Source of the DNA: Candidatus Parcubacteria bacterium | GTDB lineage: Bacteria > Patescibacteriota > Minisyncoccia > Phycocordibacterales > Zambryskibacteraceae | DNA: 64,000 nt | Reading direction: 5' to 3' | Assembly: GCA_019661895.1 (NCBI GenBank) | Contig: JAIFWO010000001.1 | Location: forward strand, 1,181 to 65,180 | Shown: positions 25,001-49,712 of the stretch, one piece after another | How the letters are laid out: each line of letters begins with the position of its first letter | Numbering within the stretch: position 1 is the stretch's first letter | The notes under the pieces: model-generated | The model's database searches: none | What the model was told of the DNA's origin: nothing | What the model saw: the letters and a program-made list of their open reading frames with translations, nothing else | Program-made: the position numbers and the translations under genes

Positions 25001-25080
25001 TTTAGCATAAAATCCGAGCTTTTACCAGCCATTTTGTGGTATAAAAGGACTAGAACTGTTCCCCATCTCACGGAGGCGAG

Positions 25081-25473
25081 ATGCCATACCTAGCTCGCAA
25101 GATAGGTCGTGACTCCGCAATCATTTTTGCCATTGTGGTTGTCCTCATCTTCGCCTTGGCTCGACTTTCAAAAGCCCAAGAGCCGGCAAGGGTGGCGCGA
25201 GACACGACCACGACGAAGATCTGCGCCCAGTTTATAAGTCTCGGTGATCCATTTCTGGAATCCGACAACACCATCGCTCTCTTTGTCAGACGTGATGGTA
25301 ACAAGGACACGACGCTTCTCGCGCCGAGAAGAGTCTACAATCGGCATCAGATCATCTTGCTGAATTGGTACAATTTCGTCTACGCCGACAATGAGCTTGT
25401 CGACTACAAGGTCTTACCGTTCCGCCGTAAGTGTCCGGAGACATATCAGGCCCAAGCGACCCCTACTCCGTAG
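25081..25473 (+). CDS. hypothetical secreted/anchored protein
   Basis: ORF with an N-terminal hydrophobic segment. Confidence 0.3.
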   Translation: MPYLARKIGRDSAIIFAIVVVLIFALARLSKAQEPARVARDTTTTKICAQFISLGDPFLESDNTIALFVRRDGNKDTTLLAPRRVYNRHQIILLNWYNFVYADNELVDYKVLPFRRKCPETYQAQATPTP

Positions 25474-25501
25474 GGGTCTTTTTATGACTTTATAGATGTG
25501 C

Positions 25502-25530
25502 TTGACAAGAAATTAGAATAGGTGTATAAT
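25502..25530 (+). promoter_or_regulatory. consensus sigma70 promoter (TTGACA-17-TATAAT)
   Basis: Both hexamers are perfect with a 17-nt spacer. It drives the 25537-25896 transcript. Confidence 0.55.
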
Positions 25531-25536
25531 AGTACA

Positions 25537-25896
25537 AGAGTGGATAACCCTCTGGCACAGCTGTAGAGCTAGTGCTAGTGTAGTCCATAGACCCGTTCCT
25601 CAATCAACCCATCGACAAATGGAGGCTCGACGTTCACCCAAGGCCAACCTTGGGCTCGCAACTACTCCCACCGATGAATCGCGCTACCGGTCCTTACGTA
25701 GTCCTCACCTCCAAACCGGTGCGCACCGCGACAACCGAGAAAAATCGTTTGATTCAGCTCGCAGACGCGAGCCGGCAGTCAGAGGCCACTGAGCCCGGGT
25801 GCCCGCGATCGACTTCAGAAAGTCCGATCGCGGGCCTACCCAAACGCGAAGATCCAACCCCACCCACCCACGCATTGCGTGGGCTTGTTATTTATG
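25537..25896 (+). ncRNA. candidate ~360-nt GC-rich non-coding RNA or structured rpsA leader, bounded by consensus promoter and intrinsic terminator
   Basis: No convincing ORF lies within it. A perfect 15-bp hairpin sits at 25801-25835, and a terminator (cccacgc-att-gcgtggg plus a T-rich tail) sits at 25867-25896. Confidence 0.4.
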
Positions 25897-25992
25897 TTAA
25901 TTTAACTTGGTTCTTTATTACCCCCGCTTTTCGTATCCCCTCTTGCTTCGGCAACCATTCATAAGCCAGAGGGCCGGGAGCGGCTCAAACAT

Positions 25993-27087
25993 TTGAACGA
26001 TACACAAACACTCGACCCCGTAAACAGCGAGGTCATGCAGAAATTAATGCTCGAGGTCCCCGAGCCACCCAAGCTCGATGACGTCATCGAGGGACCCGTC
26101 ATAGCCATAGACAAGGGCGCGGTCTATATTGACCTGCCCCCCTTCGGCACCGGCATCATCTTCGGCCGAGAGTTCATGAACGCTCGCGACATTATCAAGA
26201 AGATCAATGTGGGCGACACGGTAGCCGGCAAAGTGGTCGGCATGGGCGGCCTTGAAGGCTACATCGAGATCTCTCTCAAGGAGGCCCGCCAAGCGCTCAT
26301 CTGGAGCGAGGCTGAGGAAGCTATCCGCGAGAAGCGCGTATACGAACTGGCTATTACCGACGCCAACAAGGGCGGACTGATCATCAATTGGCAAGGCATC
26401 CAGGGCTTCCTCCCCGCTTCTCAACTCAAGCCGGAGCACTATCCTCGCATCGCCGATGGAGACAAGGATAAGATCCTCGACGAATTGAAGAAGCTCGTGG
26501 GCGTGAAGCTCTCCGTCACTATCATCGGCGCTACGCCGAAGGAGGGCAAATTGATCTTCTCTGAGAAGTCGCCTGAGACCAAGAATAAGGAAAATATTAT
26601 TGCCAAGTATACGCTTGGCGACGAAGTAATGGGAGAAGTGACGGGACTCGTCGACTTCGGCATCTTCGTCAAACTTGAAGAGGGCTTGGAGGGCTTGGTA
26701 CACATCTCGGAGATCGATTGGGGCTTGGTCGAGAATCCGAAGGCTATGTTCAGGATCGGCGAGAAGGTCAATGTCAAGATCATCGAGATCAAAGAGGATA
26801 AGATCTCCCTCTCTATCAAGGCCTTGAAGGAGAACCCTTGGAAGGAAGCCTCCGAGAAGTATAAAAAGGACGACGTGGTCGACGGCGTGATCATCAAGTA
26901 CAACAAGCACGGCGCCTTGGCCTCGATCGAGGAGGGTGTGGCCGGCTTGGTCCACGTCTCGGAGTTCGGCTCGGAAGAGAAGTTGAAGGAGAAGCTCGAA
27001 ATGGGCAAATCCTACCCCTTCAAGATCACTCTTTTCGATCCTAAGGAGCAGAAGATGGCTTTAAGTTTCGTAGAGAAAAACAAATAG
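25993..27087 (+). CDS. rpsA: 30S ribosomal protein S1 (reduced, ~4 S1 domains)
   Basis: Repeated S1-domain signatures are present (GxVxGxV...GLVHISE...). Confidence 0.85.
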   Translation: MNDTQTLDPVNSEVMQKLMLEVPEPPKLDDVIEGPVIAIDKGAVYIDLPPFGTGIIFGREFMNARDIIKKINVGDTVAGKVVGMGGLEGYIEISLKEARQALIWSEAEEAIREKRVYELAITDANKGGLIINWQGIQGFLPASQLKPEHYPRIADGDKDKILDELKKLVGVKLSVTIIGATPKEGKLIFSEKSPETKNKENIIAKYTLGDEVMGEVTGLVDFGIFVKLEEGLEGLVHISEIDWGLVENPKAMFRIGEKVNVKIIEIKEDKISLSIKALKENPWKEASEKYKKDDVVDGVIIKYNKHGALASIEEGVAGLVHVSEFGSEEKLKEKLEMGKSYPFKITLFDPKEQKMALSFVEKNK

Positions 27088-33028: not shown

Positions 33029-33057
33029 TTGACATTTATACCGAAGGGTGATATAAT
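33029..33057 (+). promoter_or_regulatory. consensus sigma70 promoter (TTGACA-17-TATAAT)
   Basis: Both hexamers are perfect. It lies upstream of the 33093 small gene. Confidence 0.55.
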
Positions 33058-33092
33058 GCTCACAGAGCAGCCAAACCCCAACCGGACGGCAA

Positions 33093-33392
33093 ATGAGAAC
33101 CCTCGTCGAGCTTGAAGTCCCAGCTCAGGATGCAAAGTGCAGCAGTAAGTATTACCTCAAGGAGTGCCCGCACTTCCCCCTCACTCTTGCGCAGCCGCAG
33201 GGGTTGTGGATGCCCAAGGGAACAGGCACCCTTGGATCCTTCGTCTTCAAATCCATTTTTGGAAATGAAGAAGACAACGCCCTCGTGGTCTGCTTCAGAC
33301 TCAACGGATATCCACCCGATGAAGAAATTGCAAGGAACCTTGGGGATGAGCTCACGAAAGTAGGCTGGGTTGAGGGTCAATACGAATTCTAG
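33093..33392 (+). CDS. hypothetical small protein (99 aa) with its own promoter and strong terminator
   Basis: The promoter is at 33029-33057 and the terminator at 33409-33444 (13-bp stem + T-run). Confidence 0.4.
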   Translation: MRTLVELEVPAQDAKCSSKYYLKECPHFPLTLAQPQGLWMPKGTGTLGSFVFKSIFGNEEDNALVVCFRLNGYPPDEEIARNLGDELTKVGWVEGQYEF

Positions 33393-33408
33393 TACTTGAC
33401 CACCTATC

Positions 33409-33444
33409 AGCCGGATGAACGCATTGCGTTCATCCGGCTTTTCC
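33409..33444 (+). terminator. intrinsic terminator
   Basis: The hairpin agccggatgaacg-cattg-cgttcatccggct is followed by tttcc. Confidence 0.65.
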
Positions 33445-33488
33445 ATACTTGCCTCTACTGTATAGATGTGCTAAAGTACGCGGACCTC

Positions 33489-47727: not shown

Positions 47728-48416
47728 GCTTCGAATTCTCCCCCATTATCTACGCCCTCCTCGGAGGCATCTTGCCCGCCTTCGTCTGGCTCCTCTTCTG
47801 GCTCGAGGAAGACAGAGACAATCCGGAACCCAACACCAAGCTCCTCGCCACCTTCCTCGCTGGCATGCTCGCGGTCATTGTGGTCTTACCCTTCCAAAAG
47901 GCTGTGGATAAGATCCTGCCTGGAGCTGGGCCCGTCGCCTTCCTCCTCTGGGCGGTGCTTGAAGAAGGGTTTAAATTTGCCGCCGCCTACTACGCCGGCC
48001 TCCGTGGAGCAGACGATGATGAGCCTCTAGACCCCATGATCTATATGATCACCGCGGCGCTCGGCTTCGCCGCGCTCGAAAACGCGCTCTTCCTTCTTAA
48101 CCCGCTCCTCCAGTCCGACATCACTGGCAGCCTTATTACGGGCAATTTGCGCTTTATTGGCTCGACCCTCCTCCACACCGTCTCCTCCGGTATCATTGGC
48201 ACTGCCCTCGATCTCACCTTCTACAAATCACGCGACGAGCGGGTAGCTTTGGGAGTCTTGGCATTTTTCCTCGCCATCTTTGCGCATACGGCCTTCAATC
48301 TATTTATCTTGAATGAATCCGGCTTTGGCACCTTCCTCACCTTCGCGACCGTCTGGGCCGGCATCACCGCTCTTATCCTCATGTTTGAAAAGGTTAAAAG
48401 TATGATGGTACAATAG
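47715..48416 (+). CDS. PrsW-family-like intramembrane metalloprotease
   Basis: It is polytopic with the motif EEGFKFAAAYYAG and later FAHTAFN. Confidence 0.45.
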   Translation: MADMSFEFSPIIYALLGGILPAFVWLLFWLEEDRDNPEPNTKLLATFLAGMLAVIVVLPFQKAVDKILPGAGPVAFLLWAVLEEGFKFAAAYYAGLRGADDDEPLDPMIYMITAALGFAALENALFLLNPLLQSDITGSLITGNLRFIGSTLLHTVSSGIIGTALDLTFYKSRDERVALGVLAFFLAIFAHTAFNLFILNESGFGTFLTFATVWAGITALILMFEKVKSMMVQ

Positions 48417-48434
48417 AGAGGTACTTTATAATTT

Positions 48435-48899
48435 ATGGCACACGAAAAAAGATCCTTTTTTGAACGGTTGACCGGAGCAGTGCGGCTCGAGGATGAGACT
48501 CACTCTTACGCCCCCGAGCCTCAAGCCCAAGCGCCGATCCGCTCTCTGGCTAACAGCTTGTACGAGGAGGAGGATGCCCAACTGACTGTCGATGTCTACC
48601 AGACTCCGACCGAGATCGTCATTAAGACTATGGTGGCGGGAGTCAAGCCGGAAGACCTCGACGTCTCCATTACCCGCGACTCGGTCAGCATCCGCGGCAA
48701 GCGCCAAGAGGACAGGACCATCTCGAGCGAGGATTACTTCCATCACGAGCTTTATTGGGGCTCCTTCTCGCGTACGATCGTCCTGCCGGAGGAAGTCGAT
48801 GTCGATAACGCCGAGGCCATCGAGAAGTATGGCCTCCTCATCCTGCGCCTCCCCAAGATCGACAAGCACCGCCAGACCAAGCTCAAGGTTCGAGGTTAA
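48435..48899 (+). CDS. Hsp20/alpha-crystallin family small heat-shock protein
   Basis: The ACD pattern is DVYQTPTEIVIKTMVAGVKPEDLDVSITRDSVSIRGKRQ...GSFSRTIVLPEEVD. Confidence 0.8.
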   Translation: MAHEKRSFFERLTGAVRLEDETHSYAPEPQAQAPIRSLANSLYEEEDAQLTVDVYQTPTEIVIKTMVAGVKPEDLDVSITRDSVSIRGKRQEDRTISSEDYFHHELYWGSFSRTIVLPEEVDVDNAEAIEKYGLLILRLPKIDKHRQTKLKVRG

Positions 48900-48931
48900 T
48901 TGAATAATTTAGACTTTCCCTTATACTAACG

Positions 48932-49174
48932 ATGAATCCAGACGAACGAGGCATGCTTGAGAGGGCGCTAAAGCTCTCTGAGGAGAACAACAAAATCCTT
49001 AGGAAGATGCAGCGAACCGCTCGATGGGCGGCGGTCTGGGGAGTCATTAAGTTTCTGGTGCTTATTATCCCTCTTATTGTCGGCTATCTATACCTGGAGC
49101 CGTACCTTAAGGGTCTTGAGCCATTATTTAAACAAGCTCAGACGGTATTTAGCGGAGAGACATTGCCGAGGTAG
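48932..49174 (+). CDS. hypothetical small membrane protein
   Basis: ORF with one TM helix. Its 3' end abuts tRNA-Phe. Confidence 0.3.
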   Translation: MNPDERGMLERALKLSEENNKILRKMQRTARWAAVWGVIKFLVLIIPLIVGYLYLEPYLKGLEPLFKQAQTVFSGETLPR

Positions 49175-49237
49175 CTCAGTTGGTAGAGCATTCCCCTGAA
49201 GAGGGAAGGGTCACCAGTTCGAATCTGGTCCTCGGCA
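49165..49237 (+). tRNA. tRNA-Phe (anticodon GAA)
   Basis: The acceptor pairs gccgagg with cctcggc. The loop is ctGAAga and the T-arm is accag-ttcgaat-ctggt. Confidence 0.85.
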
Positions 49238-49244
49238 CATTGTT

Positions 49245-49290
49245 ATAAAGAAAAGAGCCCGATCATCTGGGCTCTTGGTGAGGCTCGACT
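49245..49290 (+). terminator. terminator-like hairpin after tRNA-Phe
   Basis: The hairpin agagcccaga-tgatc-gggctct is read on the opposite strand. There is no strong T-run on the plus strand. Confidence 0.35.
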
Positions 49291-49648
49291 AGCCTGTTTT
49301 ACGTCTAACGACGTGACGCCGATCGATCCCCTTTGGGATGTTCTCTTTTTGTTCCAGTTTTCGGCGCTCTTCCGATTCACGCATACTTATTTCGTCGACG
49401 ATACGATCTCGAACTTTCTCAGGAGAATCGTGCGGCCAGACTGGCACAGTAACACTATGGAACTGAACCAGTATAACCTCCTCCTCGTTTGTTGCATGCT
49501 CGCTTGCCACTTCGGCAAGCAACTTCGAGTCGACGGCGTTGGCACCTGCGACCAGTCTTGGAATTTTTGGCGACATTATAATCTCCTCGCGCTGAATGTG
49601 CTGCTCCTGCCACGACCGATACTGGCGTGAGGAGACTACGTCTAGCAA
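49289..49648 (-). CDS. hypothetical protein
   Basis: ORF. The start may be the internal MSPKIP. Confidence 0.3.
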   Translation of the reverse strand: MLDVVSSRQYRSWQEQHIQREEIIMSPKIPRLVAGANAVDSKLLAEVASEHATNEEEVILVQFHSVTVPVWPHDSPEKVRDRIVDEISMRESEERRKLEQKENIPKGIDRRHVVRRKTG

Positions 49649-49712
49649 GTATTATAAATCACTCTAGAATAAAAAATCAAGTGTCAAGAAAAACTGTGGA
49701 TAACTCGATGGG

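What the first reader, a model, noticed from the sequence alone, without database searches (positions are those of the whole stretch)
25502..25896. Promoter-to-terminator-bounded ~360-nt GC-rich transcript upstream of rpsA: candidate unannotated ncRNA or unusually long structured leader
A textbook promoter (TTGACA-17-TATAAT, 25502-25530) drives a region with no credible ORF. It contains a perfect 15-bp hairpin (gcccgcgatcgactt-cagaa-agtccgatcgcgggc, 25801-25835). It ends in a terminator (cccacgc-att-gcgtggg plus a T-rich tail, 25867-25896) about 100 nt before the rpsA start.

The GC content is visibly higher than the flanks. I looked for tmRNA, 6S and SRP hallmarks and could not confirm any. 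It could be an S1 autoregulatory leader, but the internal terminator argues for a separate RNA.
Basis: seen in the sequence. Interest (0 to 1): 0.5.

Follow-up and report, generated by a model that had tools for sequence, protein, structure and literature searches.

The report
Orphan noncoding RNA gene upstream of rpsA
A strongly promoted, terminator-bounded stretch of about 360 bases just upstream of the ribosomal protein S1 gene of an uncultivated Zambryskibacteria (Parcubacteria) bacterium is a separate gene for a noncoding RNA of unknown function that matches no described RNA family and is found only in a few close relatives; it is not the S1 leader.

Summary
The "perfect 15-bp hairpin" is 11 bp, a bulged C, then 4 bp.

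The promoter at 25502-25530 is one of only two perfect sigma-70 consensus promoters in the 64 kb window. The unit has no conserved ORF and ends at a terminator.

It is not the S1 leader. rpsA has its own positionally conserved promoter. Its -35 hexamer TTGCGT (25875-25880) lies inside the terminator's 3' arm, and its -10 is TAATTT (25898-25903). A separate leader (25910-25992) shows strong covariation across 34 species.

Homologous ORF-free units exist in four or five close relatives. These keep the promoter, a 5' hairpin with compensatory changes, one internal hairpin module and the terminator. Silent sites in S1 are saturated over the same distances.

The body turns over by indels. Without the end hairpins it folds little better than the genomic background.

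Neither the window unit nor any of 13 related loci scanned reached an Rfam gathering score. ARAGORN finds no tmRNA.

The unit sits in a hypervariable slot that otherwise holds small secreted-protein cassettes with similar promoters and terminators. A cassette that lost its ORF therefore remains a live rival.

Function is unknown. Interest is moderate.

The parts
25458..25483 (+). Terminator of the upstream small secreted-protein gene (p130, 25081-25473). It marks the 5' boundary of the unit.
   Evidence: Terminator scan, 9-bp stem plus T run; sequence.
25502..25530 (+). Promoter TTGACA-17-TATAAT (-35 at 25502-25507, -10 at 25525-25530). The transcription start near 25537 is inferred, not measured.
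   Evidence: 12 of 12 match. One of two in the window, 0.13 expected. TTGACA is kept in all five homologues; TATAAT is kept in the window, L081 and L083.
25540..25588 (+). P1, the 5'-terminal hairpin. It has an outer stem GUGGAU/GUCCAU, a middle stem onto the invariant GCUAG, and a 4-bp inner stem with a tetraloop.
   Evidence: Single-sequence folds of four homologues give the same hairpin. Three of four inner pairs show changes on both sides among four sequences. Identity is 72-76% where neutral sites are 39-49% identical.
25596..25609 (+). Short C-rich motif UUCCUCAAUCAACC after P1. Related CCUCAA motifs occur in other units.
   Evidence: CTCAA and CCTCA are the top enriched non-terminator 5-mers over nine units (z 3.7-4.1, not corrected for 1024 tests). 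The 9-mer TTCCTCAAT is shared with L106.
25621..25668 (+). Module 2: GGAG..CG..[CCCAAGG-CCAA-CCUUGGG]..CG..CUCC. It is shared with L083.
   Evidence: nhmmer E=1.2e-5 against L083. The only indel is 5 nt and lies in the hairpin loop. The window's 57-aa frame has two stops in L083.
25681..25724 (+). Hairpin GCGCUACCGGU/ACCGGUGCGC with a 23-nt loop that contains CACCUCC (25706-25712).
   Evidence: MFE and centroid folds. Not seen to be conserved in homologues.
25757..25772 (+). Hairpin GCUCGC-AGAC-GCGAGC.
   Evidence: MFE and centroid folds.
25801..25835 (+). Penultimate GC-rich hairpin: 11 bp, bulged C, 4 bp, loop CAGA.
   Evidence: A hairpin with a CCCGCG...CGCGGG-type base lies before the terminator in L001, L081, L083, L105 and L020. 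The same two-hairpin 3' end also closes protein-coding cassettes.
25867..25897 (+). Intrinsic terminator of the unit: stem 25867-25883, then a U-rich tail.
   Evidence: A terminator at the same place is present in all homologues.
25875..25903 (+). rpsA's own promoter: TTGCGT (25875-25880), 17 nt, TAATTT (25898-25903). It overlaps the terminator. It is not part of the RNA but delimits it.
   Evidence: A TTGNNN-16..18-TANNNT site is found in 22 of 41 loci, and the -10 ends 7 nt before leader position 1 in 14 of them. This includes relatives with only about 155 nt between the divergent genes.
25910..25992 (+). The true rpsA 5' leader. It is a conserved structured element that ends 9 nt before an SD-less UUG start. 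It is adjacent to the unit, not part of it.
   Evidence: Found in about 48 of 87 S1 loci. 12 of 15 pairs change on both sides; 0 of 500 shuffles reach the observed covariation.

Best explanation
The stretch 25537 to about 25893 is an independent gene for a noncoding RNA of about 360 nt.

Shown:
- It has a full-consensus promoter, its own terminator and no conserved reading frame.
- It has homologues of 386-609 nt in a few close Zambryskibacteria relatives, always as the last unit before the rpsA promoter.
- Selection acts on the promoter, on a 5'-terminal hairpin (P1), on at least one internal hairpin module, and on the terminator.

Inferred:
- The RNA accumulates as a discrete stable species. 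P1 would protect the 5' end and the tandem 3' hairpins would protect the 3' end.
- It acts in trans through short exposed C-rich single-stranded segments (UUCCUCAAUCAACC after P1; CACCUCC in a 23-nt loop). The partners would be G-rich RNA such as ribosome-binding sites, or a single-strand RNA-binding protein.
- The long variable body serves mainly as a scaffold.

The gene probably arose on the same promoter/terminator chassis as the neighbouring small secreted-protein cassettes. The trans-acting step is my best guess, not a result.
For: Promoter:
- 12 of 12 match, one of two in 64 kb.
- The -35 is kept in all five homologues and the -10 in three.

Separate transcript:
- rpsA has its own promoter at a fixed distance from its leader, also in relatives that lack the unit.
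- The leader is a distinct covarying element.
- Terminators are strong in L083, L001 and L082.

Noncoding:
- No ORF with an SD or a hydrophobic stretch is shared by the five units.
- The window's 57-aa frame has two stops and a 5-nt loop indel in L083.
- There is no Pfam hit and no blastx or tblastx similarity to neighbouring small proteins.
- Gene callers left the corresponding gaps empty in L081, L082 and L083.

Selection:
- S1 four-fold sites are only 39-49% identical to the window.
- P1 and module 2 are 72-76% identical.
- P1's inner stem has compensatory changes at 3 of 4 pairs.

Folding:
- z scores are -5.1, -8.0, -4.0, -5.9 and -5.6 for the five units.
- The genomic background is -0.87 +/- 1.5.

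Persistence:
- An ORF-free unit of 360-600 nt has survived saturating divergence in a small, gene-dense genome.
Against: - No expression data exist.
- Only four or five homologues are known, so covariation cannot be tested statistically.
- Without P1 and the 3' hairpins the body folds at z = -1.8, -1.1, -2.9 and -2.7, close to background.
- Most of the body is not alignable even between close relatives.
- Promoter style, 5' leader motifs and the tandem 3' hairpins are shared with protein-coding cassettes in the same slot. The conserved parts could therefore be generic cassette parts.
- In the L040/L042 pair the unit is 72% identical, the same as four-fold sites (72%).
- Predicted pairing with the start regions of neighbouring genes or of S1 is no better than with shuffled targets.
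- The C-rich motif enrichment is weak once multiple tests are considered.
Confidence: 0.5

Rival explanations
1. Decayed cassette. The unit is the remnant of a small secreted-protein cassette that lost its reading frame. Promoter and terminator still work, so it is transcribed, but the RNA has no function of its own.
For: - The slot between the MBL-fold gene and rpsA is hypervariable, 36 to 2439 nt. In many relatives it holds small TM or secreted ORFs with the same kind of promoter and terminator.
- A coding cassette in L085 has a 5' UTR resembling the unit's 5' end without the inner hairpin.
- Coding cassettes also end in a GC hairpin plus terminator.
- A GGAGG with no usable start codon follows the 5' domain at 25621.
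- Unit sizes of 530-610 nt match a cassette encoding 130-160 aa.
- Body folding is near background.
- The L040/L042 units diverge at the neutral rate.
Against: - ORF-free units persist in at least five lineages that have diverged to saturation at silent sites, in a gene-dense genome.
- The promoter stays at full consensus.
- P1 carries an inserted hairpin with compensatory changes that the coding cassette lacks.
- Module 2 is conserved, and its only indel lies in the loop.
- No residual protein similarity remains.
Confidence: 0.2
2. The act of transcription matters, not the RNA. A very strong promoter firing towards a terminator that overlaps the rpsA -35 tunes rpsA transcription. The possible routes are occlusion, local supercoiling or polymerase hand-over. 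The unit could also insulate rpsA from the variable cassettes.
For: - The terminator's 3' arm contains the rpsA -35, and the T tract is the promoter spacer, in all homologues.
- The ORF-free unit is always the one next to rpsA.
- The body sequence is free to vary.
- The only other perfect promoter in the window drives a small unit immediately upstream of rpsU (S21).
Against: - Coding cassettes next to rpsA have the same terminator/-35 overlap (L006), so the overlap is not specific to ORF-free units.
- This reading does not explain selection on P1 or module 2.
- Many relatives express rpsA with no upstream unit at all.
Confidence: 0.1
3. mRNA for a small protein or peptide. Candidates are the 57-aa arginine-rich ORF at 25619-25792 or a shorter lineage-specific sORF.
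For: - The ORF exists with an ATG start.
- SD-less starts do occur in this genome, for example rpsA and the 99-aa ORF at 33093.
- L001 has a 22-aa ORF with a hydrophobic tail.
Against: - The ORF has no SD and no Pfam hit.
- The frame is broken by two stops and a 5-nt indel in the L083 homologue.
- No ORF is shared among the five units.
- Long open frames are expected by chance at 17% T.
Confidence: 0.07
4. Long rpsA leader or attenuator. rpsA is transcribed from 25502, and the terminator at 25867 is a regulated attenuator.
For: - The unit lies in tandem upstream of rpsA.
- The window's terminator has an interrupted U tract (CUUGUUAUUUAU), so some read-through is plausible.
Against: - rpsA's own promoter is positionally conserved in 22 or more of 41 loci, including those with a gap of about 155 nt.
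- The conserved leader starts downstream of that promoter.
- The unit is absent from most relatives.
- Homologues have strong terminators.
- No sequence upstream can pair with the terminator arms as an antiterminator.
- No Rfam leader or riboswitch hit was found.
Confidence: 0.05

Closest known systems
Generic bacterial sRNA genes bounded by a promoter and an intrinsic terminator, in particular C-rich regulators such as RsaE/RoxS of Firmicutes (comparison from my own knowledge)
   Same: - A stand-alone promoter and a Rho-independent terminator.
- No ORF.
- Stable end hairpins.
- Exposed C-rich single-stranded motifs that could pair with G-rich ribosome-binding sites.
   Different: - It is three to four times longer than those regulators.
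- There is no sequence or Rfam similarity.
- No target pairing above shuffled controls was found.
- The body evolves by large indels.
- It is restricted to a few Zambryskibacteria.
E. coli rpsA leader, the target of S1 autoregulation (comparison from my own knowledge: a structured, SD-less 5' UTR)
   Same: It lies upstream of rpsA. Its neighbour at 25910-25992 is indeed a structured, SD-less leader.
   Different: The unit is a separate transcript upstream of the rpsA promoter. It is the 83-nt element at 25910-25992, not the unit, that plays the leader role.
Housekeeping RNAs of similar size: tmRNA, RNase P RNA, 6S RNA, SRP RNA
   Same: The size of about 360 nt matches tmRNA and RNase P RNA. 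It has a strong promoter and folds stably.
   Different: - There is no tRNA-like domain or tag ORF.
- No Rfam match was found at E up to 10.
- It is absent from this locus in most relatives and highly variable in length, whereas housekeeping RNAs are universal and conserved.
Orphan large structured RNAs: OLE, ROOL, GOLLD, raiA, HEARO
   Same: It is a long noncoding RNA of unknown function. Larger relatives (L081, L040, L042, L037, L105) have a 5'-3' closing helix around a multi-hairpin body.
   Different: - Those families have extensive conserved cores with strong covariation and wide distribution.
- Here conservation is confined to the ends and one module.
- No Rfam hits were found.

Membership tests
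tmRNA | tRNA-like domain (acceptor and T arms) plus an internal tag-peptide reading frame | tested here: not met
   ARAGORN finds 13 tRNAs and no tmRNA in the window. No Rfam tmRNA match was found at E up to 10 in 25300-26100.
6S RNA | A rod of about 180 nt with a closing stem, a large central bubble and an apical stem; a match to the Rfam 6S models | tested here: not met
   No Rfam match. The fold is a string of local hairpins with no 5'-3' closing stem in the window copy. Homologues are 386-609 nt long.
RNase P RNA / SRP RNA | Conserved P4 core (RNase P) or domain IV motif (SRP), as captured by the Rfam covariance models | tested here: not met
   No match at E up to 10. No match in 13 related loci scanned. 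The AAAGUCC at 25819-25825 is simply part of the hairpin arm.
rpsA (S1) 5' leader | Lies within the rpsA mRNA, between the rpsA promoter and the start codon | tested here: not met
   The rpsA promoter TTGCGT-17-TAATTT (25875-25903) lies downstream of the unit's body and is positionally conserved. The real leader is 25910-25992.
Riboswitch or transcription attenuator | A conserved sensor domain plus mutually exclusive terminator and antiterminator pairings that control the downstream gene | tested here: not met
   No Rfam cis-regulatory hit. No upstream segment is complementary to the terminator arms. The downstream gene has its own promoter.
Stand-alone sRNA/ncRNA gene (generic kind) | Own promoter | tested here: met
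   12 of 12 consensus match. Conserved in homologues.
Stand-alone sRNA/ncRNA gene (generic kind) | Own intrinsic terminator | tested here: met
   Present in every homologue.
Stand-alone sRNA/ncRNA gene (generic kind) | No conserved reading frame | tested here: met
Stand-alone sRNA/ncRNA gene (generic kind) | A discrete transcript is observed | not testable with these tools
   No transcriptome data are available here.
Stand-alone sRNA/ncRNA gene (generic kind) | Conserved secondary structure supported by covariation | tested here: inconclusive
   The P1 inner stem has 3 of 4 pairs compensatory, but among only four sequences. RNAalifold on the MAFFT alignment predicts nothing. Body-only z scores are near background.
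Type I toxin mRNA | A small hydrophobic ORF with a ribosome-binding site inside a structured mRNA | tested here: not met
   No ORF in the window unit reaches a 15-residue mean hydropathy above 0.6, and none of these has an SD. None is shared between units.
Large ornate RNAs (OLE, ROOL, GOLLD, raiA, HEARO) | A match to the family covariance model | tested here: not met

The most novel reading that the evidence does not exclude
The unit belongs to a fast-evolving family of highly expressed RNAs that is functionally tied to ribosomal protein S1. One example would be an RNA that titrates S1, or another single-strand RNA-binding factor. Together with the SD-less structured rpsA leader next to it, it would form a regulatory circuit peculiar to these reduced-genome bacteria. 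Its rapid turnover would then reflect adaptation rather than decay.
Probability: 0.1. Interest if true: 0.65.

Novelty: new member of a known kind. Interest (0 to 1): 0.4.

Why it matters
- Almost nothing is known about regulatory RNAs in Candidate Phyla Radiation bacteria. They have tiny genomes and cannot yet be grown alone.
- A strongly promoted, lineage-specific noncoding RNA retained in such a streamlined genome is a concrete candidate for transcriptomics.
- The locus shows how a hypervariable array of self-contained promoter/terminator cassettes is packed against an essential gene. The last terminator is built around the essential gene's -35 element.
- The by-product is arguably the more solid result: a covariation-supported, SD-less structured leader of rpsA across dozens of Zambryskibacteria, with no Rfam match in the window scan (E up to 10). 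It is a candidate S1 autoregulatory element.

Tried and rejected
1. Known RNA families. Rfam at gathering score and at E up to 10 on the window unit, and at E up to 1 on 13 related loci, gave nothing relevant. ARAGORN found no tmRNA.
2. Mobile or repeated element. There is no second copy in the window. There is no phage or plasmid match beyond the promoter consensus.
3. oriC or DnaA regulation. The GTGGATAA at +3 resembles a DnaA box. It is isolated, degenerates to GTTGATAA in homologues, and is the 5' arm of P1.
4. Wider family search. A specific promoter + GTKGATAA + GCTAG pattern found 14 metagenome stretches, which inspection and nhmmer showed to be unrelated, and 3 viral stretches that nhmmer did not match. 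nhmmer with the 5' domain finds only five members among 87 S1 loci.
5. Pseudogene signal. blastx and tblastx against all neighbouring small proteins and loci gave nothing.
6. Recoding. The one stop in the long open frame is TGA, but all flanking genes use the standard code, so the idea was dropped.
7. Antisense pairing. Pairing to the start regions of neighbouring cassettes or rpsA was no better than with shuffled targets. Whole-length duplex prediction was meaningless.
8. Shared motif with the S1 leader loop (GGCAACCA). CAACC enrichment is only z = 2.85 uncorrected.
9. RNAalifold on the MAFFT alignment of the 5' domain predicted no structure because the inner stem was misaligned. Pairs were counted by hand instead.
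10. Literature. Nothing was found on rpsA leaders or ncRNAs in these bacteria.

Full report
**What is in the sequence**

The promoter TTGACA-17-TATAAT at 25502-25530 matches 12 of 12 consensus positions. It is one of only two perfect sites in 64 kb on both strands, against 0.13 expected. The terminator CCCACGC-AUU-GCGUGGG lies at 25867-25883 and is followed by a U-rich tail.

The 25801-25835 hairpin is 11 bp, then a bulged C at 25824, then 4 bp. It is not a perfect 15-bp stem. GC is 0.59 against 0.47-0.525 in the flanks. The stretch is C-rich and T-poor.

No ORF in it has a Shine-Dalgarno sequence or a Pfam match.

**Organism and context**

The S1 gene finds its closest relatives in Candidatus Zambryskibacteria and other Parcubacteria MAGs. 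The window's own proteins are on record at NCBI as a Candidatus Parcubacteria bacterium with locus tag KW785.

The gene order is conserved: gyrA(-), a small ORF(-), an MBL-fold gene(-), then S1(+). The space between the MBL-fold gene and S1 ranges from 36 to 2439 nt.

In many relatives that space holds one to three small genes for TM or secreted proteins. Each has its own TTGACA-type promoter, an SD and a terminator. In the window it holds p130 (25081-25473), whose only recorded database match is the window's own entry, followed by the unit under study.

**rpsA has its own promoter and leader**

Across relatives only 25870-25997 is conserved by blastn. In relatives with about 155 nt between the divergent genes, S1 is preceded by TTGCAT-17-TAACTT or similar. 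That site lies a fixed 7 nt before a conserved leader.

The window has the same arrangement: TTGCGT (25875-25880), 17 nt, TAATTT (25898-25903). The -35 therefore lies in the 3' arm of the unit's terminator, and the T tract is the promoter spacer. The arrangement is the same in L001, L002, L006, L081, L082 and L083.

The leader (25910-25992) is found in about 48 of 87 S1 loci. It has an outer and an inner helix. 12 of 15 pairs change on both sides, 88.5% of cells are paired, and 0 of 500 shuffles reach the observed covariation. Slid-partner controls score far lower.

The leader ends 9 nt before an SD-less UUG or AUG start. That start aligns between species and matches NCBI's 364-aa call. The "long S1 leader" reading of the unit is therefore rejected.

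**Homologues of the unit**

Among 80 species representatives only L001 gave a weak nhmmer hit. Fetching the loci of the closest S1 proteins (90-93% identity) gave L081, L082 and L083. Gene callers left 540-900 nt empty upstream of S1 in these loci.

These loci carry homologous units:

| Locus | Coordinates | Length |
|---|---|---|
| L081 | 2282-2890 | 609 nt |
| L083 | 2286-2862 | 577 nt |
| L001 | 2236-2770 | 535 nt |
| L082 | 2520-2905 | 386 nt (lacks the 5' hairpin) |

p130 is homologous to the gene just upstream of the L083 unit (34% identity). The order p130, unit, rpsA is therefore inherited.

The family is narrow. A specific DNA pattern found only unrelated sequences in the metagenome and viral collections. 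L105 and L106 (identical to L107 and L109) carry ORF-free units with the same layout and shared short motifs, but without P1.

**What is under selection**

S1 four-fold degenerate sites are only 39-49% identical between the window and these relatives, which is near saturation. Against that baseline:

- TTGACA is invariant.
- The first ~70 nt of the transcript are about 76% identical to L081.
- Module 2 (25621-25668) is 72% identical to a segment of L083 that lies 300 nt further from the 5' end.

P1 (25540-25588) folds in the same way in four species. Its 4-bp inner stem reads AGCU/AGCU, UCC/GGA, UGCC/GGCA and AGCC/GGCU. That gives compensatory changes at three of four pairs. The middle stem onto the invariant GCUAG is compatible with pairing in three of four.

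In module 2 the only indel, 5 nt, falls in the hairpin loop. The window's 57-aa frame acquires two stops in L083. No ORF is shared by the five units, and there is no protein-level similarity to anything nearby.

**How structured is it?**

Whole units fold far better than dinucleotide shuffles: z = -5.1, -8.0, -4.0, -5.9 and -5.6. Eighty 360-nt windows of the same contig average -0.87 +/- 1.5. Only tRNA-containing windows compare.

Without P1 and the two 3' hairpins, however, the bodies give z = -1.8, -1.1, -2.9 and -2.7. Most of the signal therefore comes from the ends.

Those 3' ends (GC hairpin plus terminator) and the promoter and leader style are shared with protein-coding cassettes in the same slot. 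The bodies are mostly unalignable and differ by hundreds of nt.

**A wider set of ORF-free units**

L040, L042, L023, L037, L002 and L020 also have ORF-poor units of 260-690 nt next to rpsA. None has an Rfam match. Five of the larger units have a perfect 8-13-bp helix joining the 5' region to the segment between the penultimate hairpin and the terminator. These are L081, L040, L042, L037 and L105. L081, L040 and L042 share a UGAUGU/ACAUCA core. The window copy has no such helix.

Sequence links between these groups are not detectable by nhmmer. L040 and L042 are 72% identical over 279 nt, exactly the identity of their S1 four-fold sites. This gives no evidence of constraint there beyond conserved stems and indels confined to loops.

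**Function**

- The DnaA-box-like GTGGATAA is the 5' arm of P1, not part of an origin.
- Pairing with the start regions of neighbouring genes or rpsA is no better than with shuffled targets.
- CCUCA and CUCAA are the most enriched internal 5-mers (z about 4 before correction), and CAACC only z 2.85.

My best reading is a stable, trans-acting noncoding RNA built on the cassette chassis. Only the existence of a separate, selected, ORF-free transcription unit is shown. The main rival is a cassette that lost its ORF.

**Comparison with known families and verdict**

The unit is not tmRNA, 6S, SRP or RNase P RNA. It is not a riboswitch, an r-protein leader or a known large RNA. A literature search found nothing on such RNAs in these bacteria.

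It is a new, narrow family of the familiar kind: a stand-alone bacterial noncoding RNA gene. Interest is moderate. The rpsA leader found alongside is the better-supported new RNA element.

Noticed in passing
window 25910-25992 (and about 48 of 87 related S1 loci, e.g. L009 2892-2979): A conserved structured 5' leader of rpsA. An outer helix (CCGUUUUCG/CGGAAACGG type) encloses a hairpin with the conserved loop GGCAACCA. It ends 9 nt before an SD-less UUG or AUG start. 12 of 15 pairs covary and 0 of 500 shuffles match. No Rfam hit. It is a candidate S1 autoregulatory element in Zambryskibacteria.
   Followed up: yes
window 25867-25903; same place in L001, L002, L006, L081-L083: The terminator of whatever unit lies upstream is built around the rpsA promoter. 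The -35 hexamer TTGCGT is the 3' arm of the stem, and the T tract is the 17-nt spacer.
   Followed up: yes
window 25001-25990 and the equivalent gap in L001-L109: The space between the MBL-fold gene and rpsA is a hypervariable slot of 36-2439 nt. It is filled with self-contained cassettes for small, fast-evolving TM or secreted proteins; p130 has no homologue beyond 34% identity.
   Followed up: partly
window 4041-4190, 5161-5320, 5678-5800, 15016-15180: A repeated element of about 80-100 nt (..GAGCCGGAG..GACGG.GCGAGGCGGGGTCG-hairpin-CGTGACC) lies 60-100 nt downstream of four tRNA genes (Leu, Trp, Tyr, Lys). The core 12-mer occurs 5 times against 0.33 expected. After tRNA-Trp it is followed by a second copy of the tRNA 3' end (CGATTCCTTCATCGCCCGCAATG at 5141-5163 and 5299-5320), like an integration scar. 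The 360-nt window at 5601 had the lowest folding z (-8.4) in the contig. It reached no Rfam gathering score in the whole-window scan.
   Followed up: partly
window 33029-33445: The only other perfect TTGACA-17-TATAAT in the window drives a 99-aa ORF of unknown function (33093-33392). Its terminator (..GGATGAACGCATTGCGTTCATCC..) shares the ACGCATTGCGT core with the unit's terminator. It sits directly upstream of rpsU (S21), a second case of a strong small unit abutting a ribosomal protein gene.
   Followed up: partly
window 47903-49703: A cluster of DnaA-box matches: perfect TTATCCACA at 47903 and 49695, and one-mismatch boxes at 48373 and 48800, near tRNA-Phe and tRNA-Arg. This is a possible replication origin.
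   Followed up: no
L081 573-582 of the unit, L040, L042, L037, L105 (unit coordinates): Larger ORF-free units next to rpsA in relatives have a perfect 8-13-bp long-range helix. It joins the 5' region to the segment between the penultimate hairpin and the terminator. Three share a UGAUGU/ACAUCA core with covarying flanks. The window copy lacks it.
   Followed up: partly
L106, L107, L109: The same 517-nt MBL-rpsA intergenic region, including a 300-nt ORF-free unit, is 100% identical in contigs from three independent public samples (ENA, Logan, JGI).
   Followed up: no
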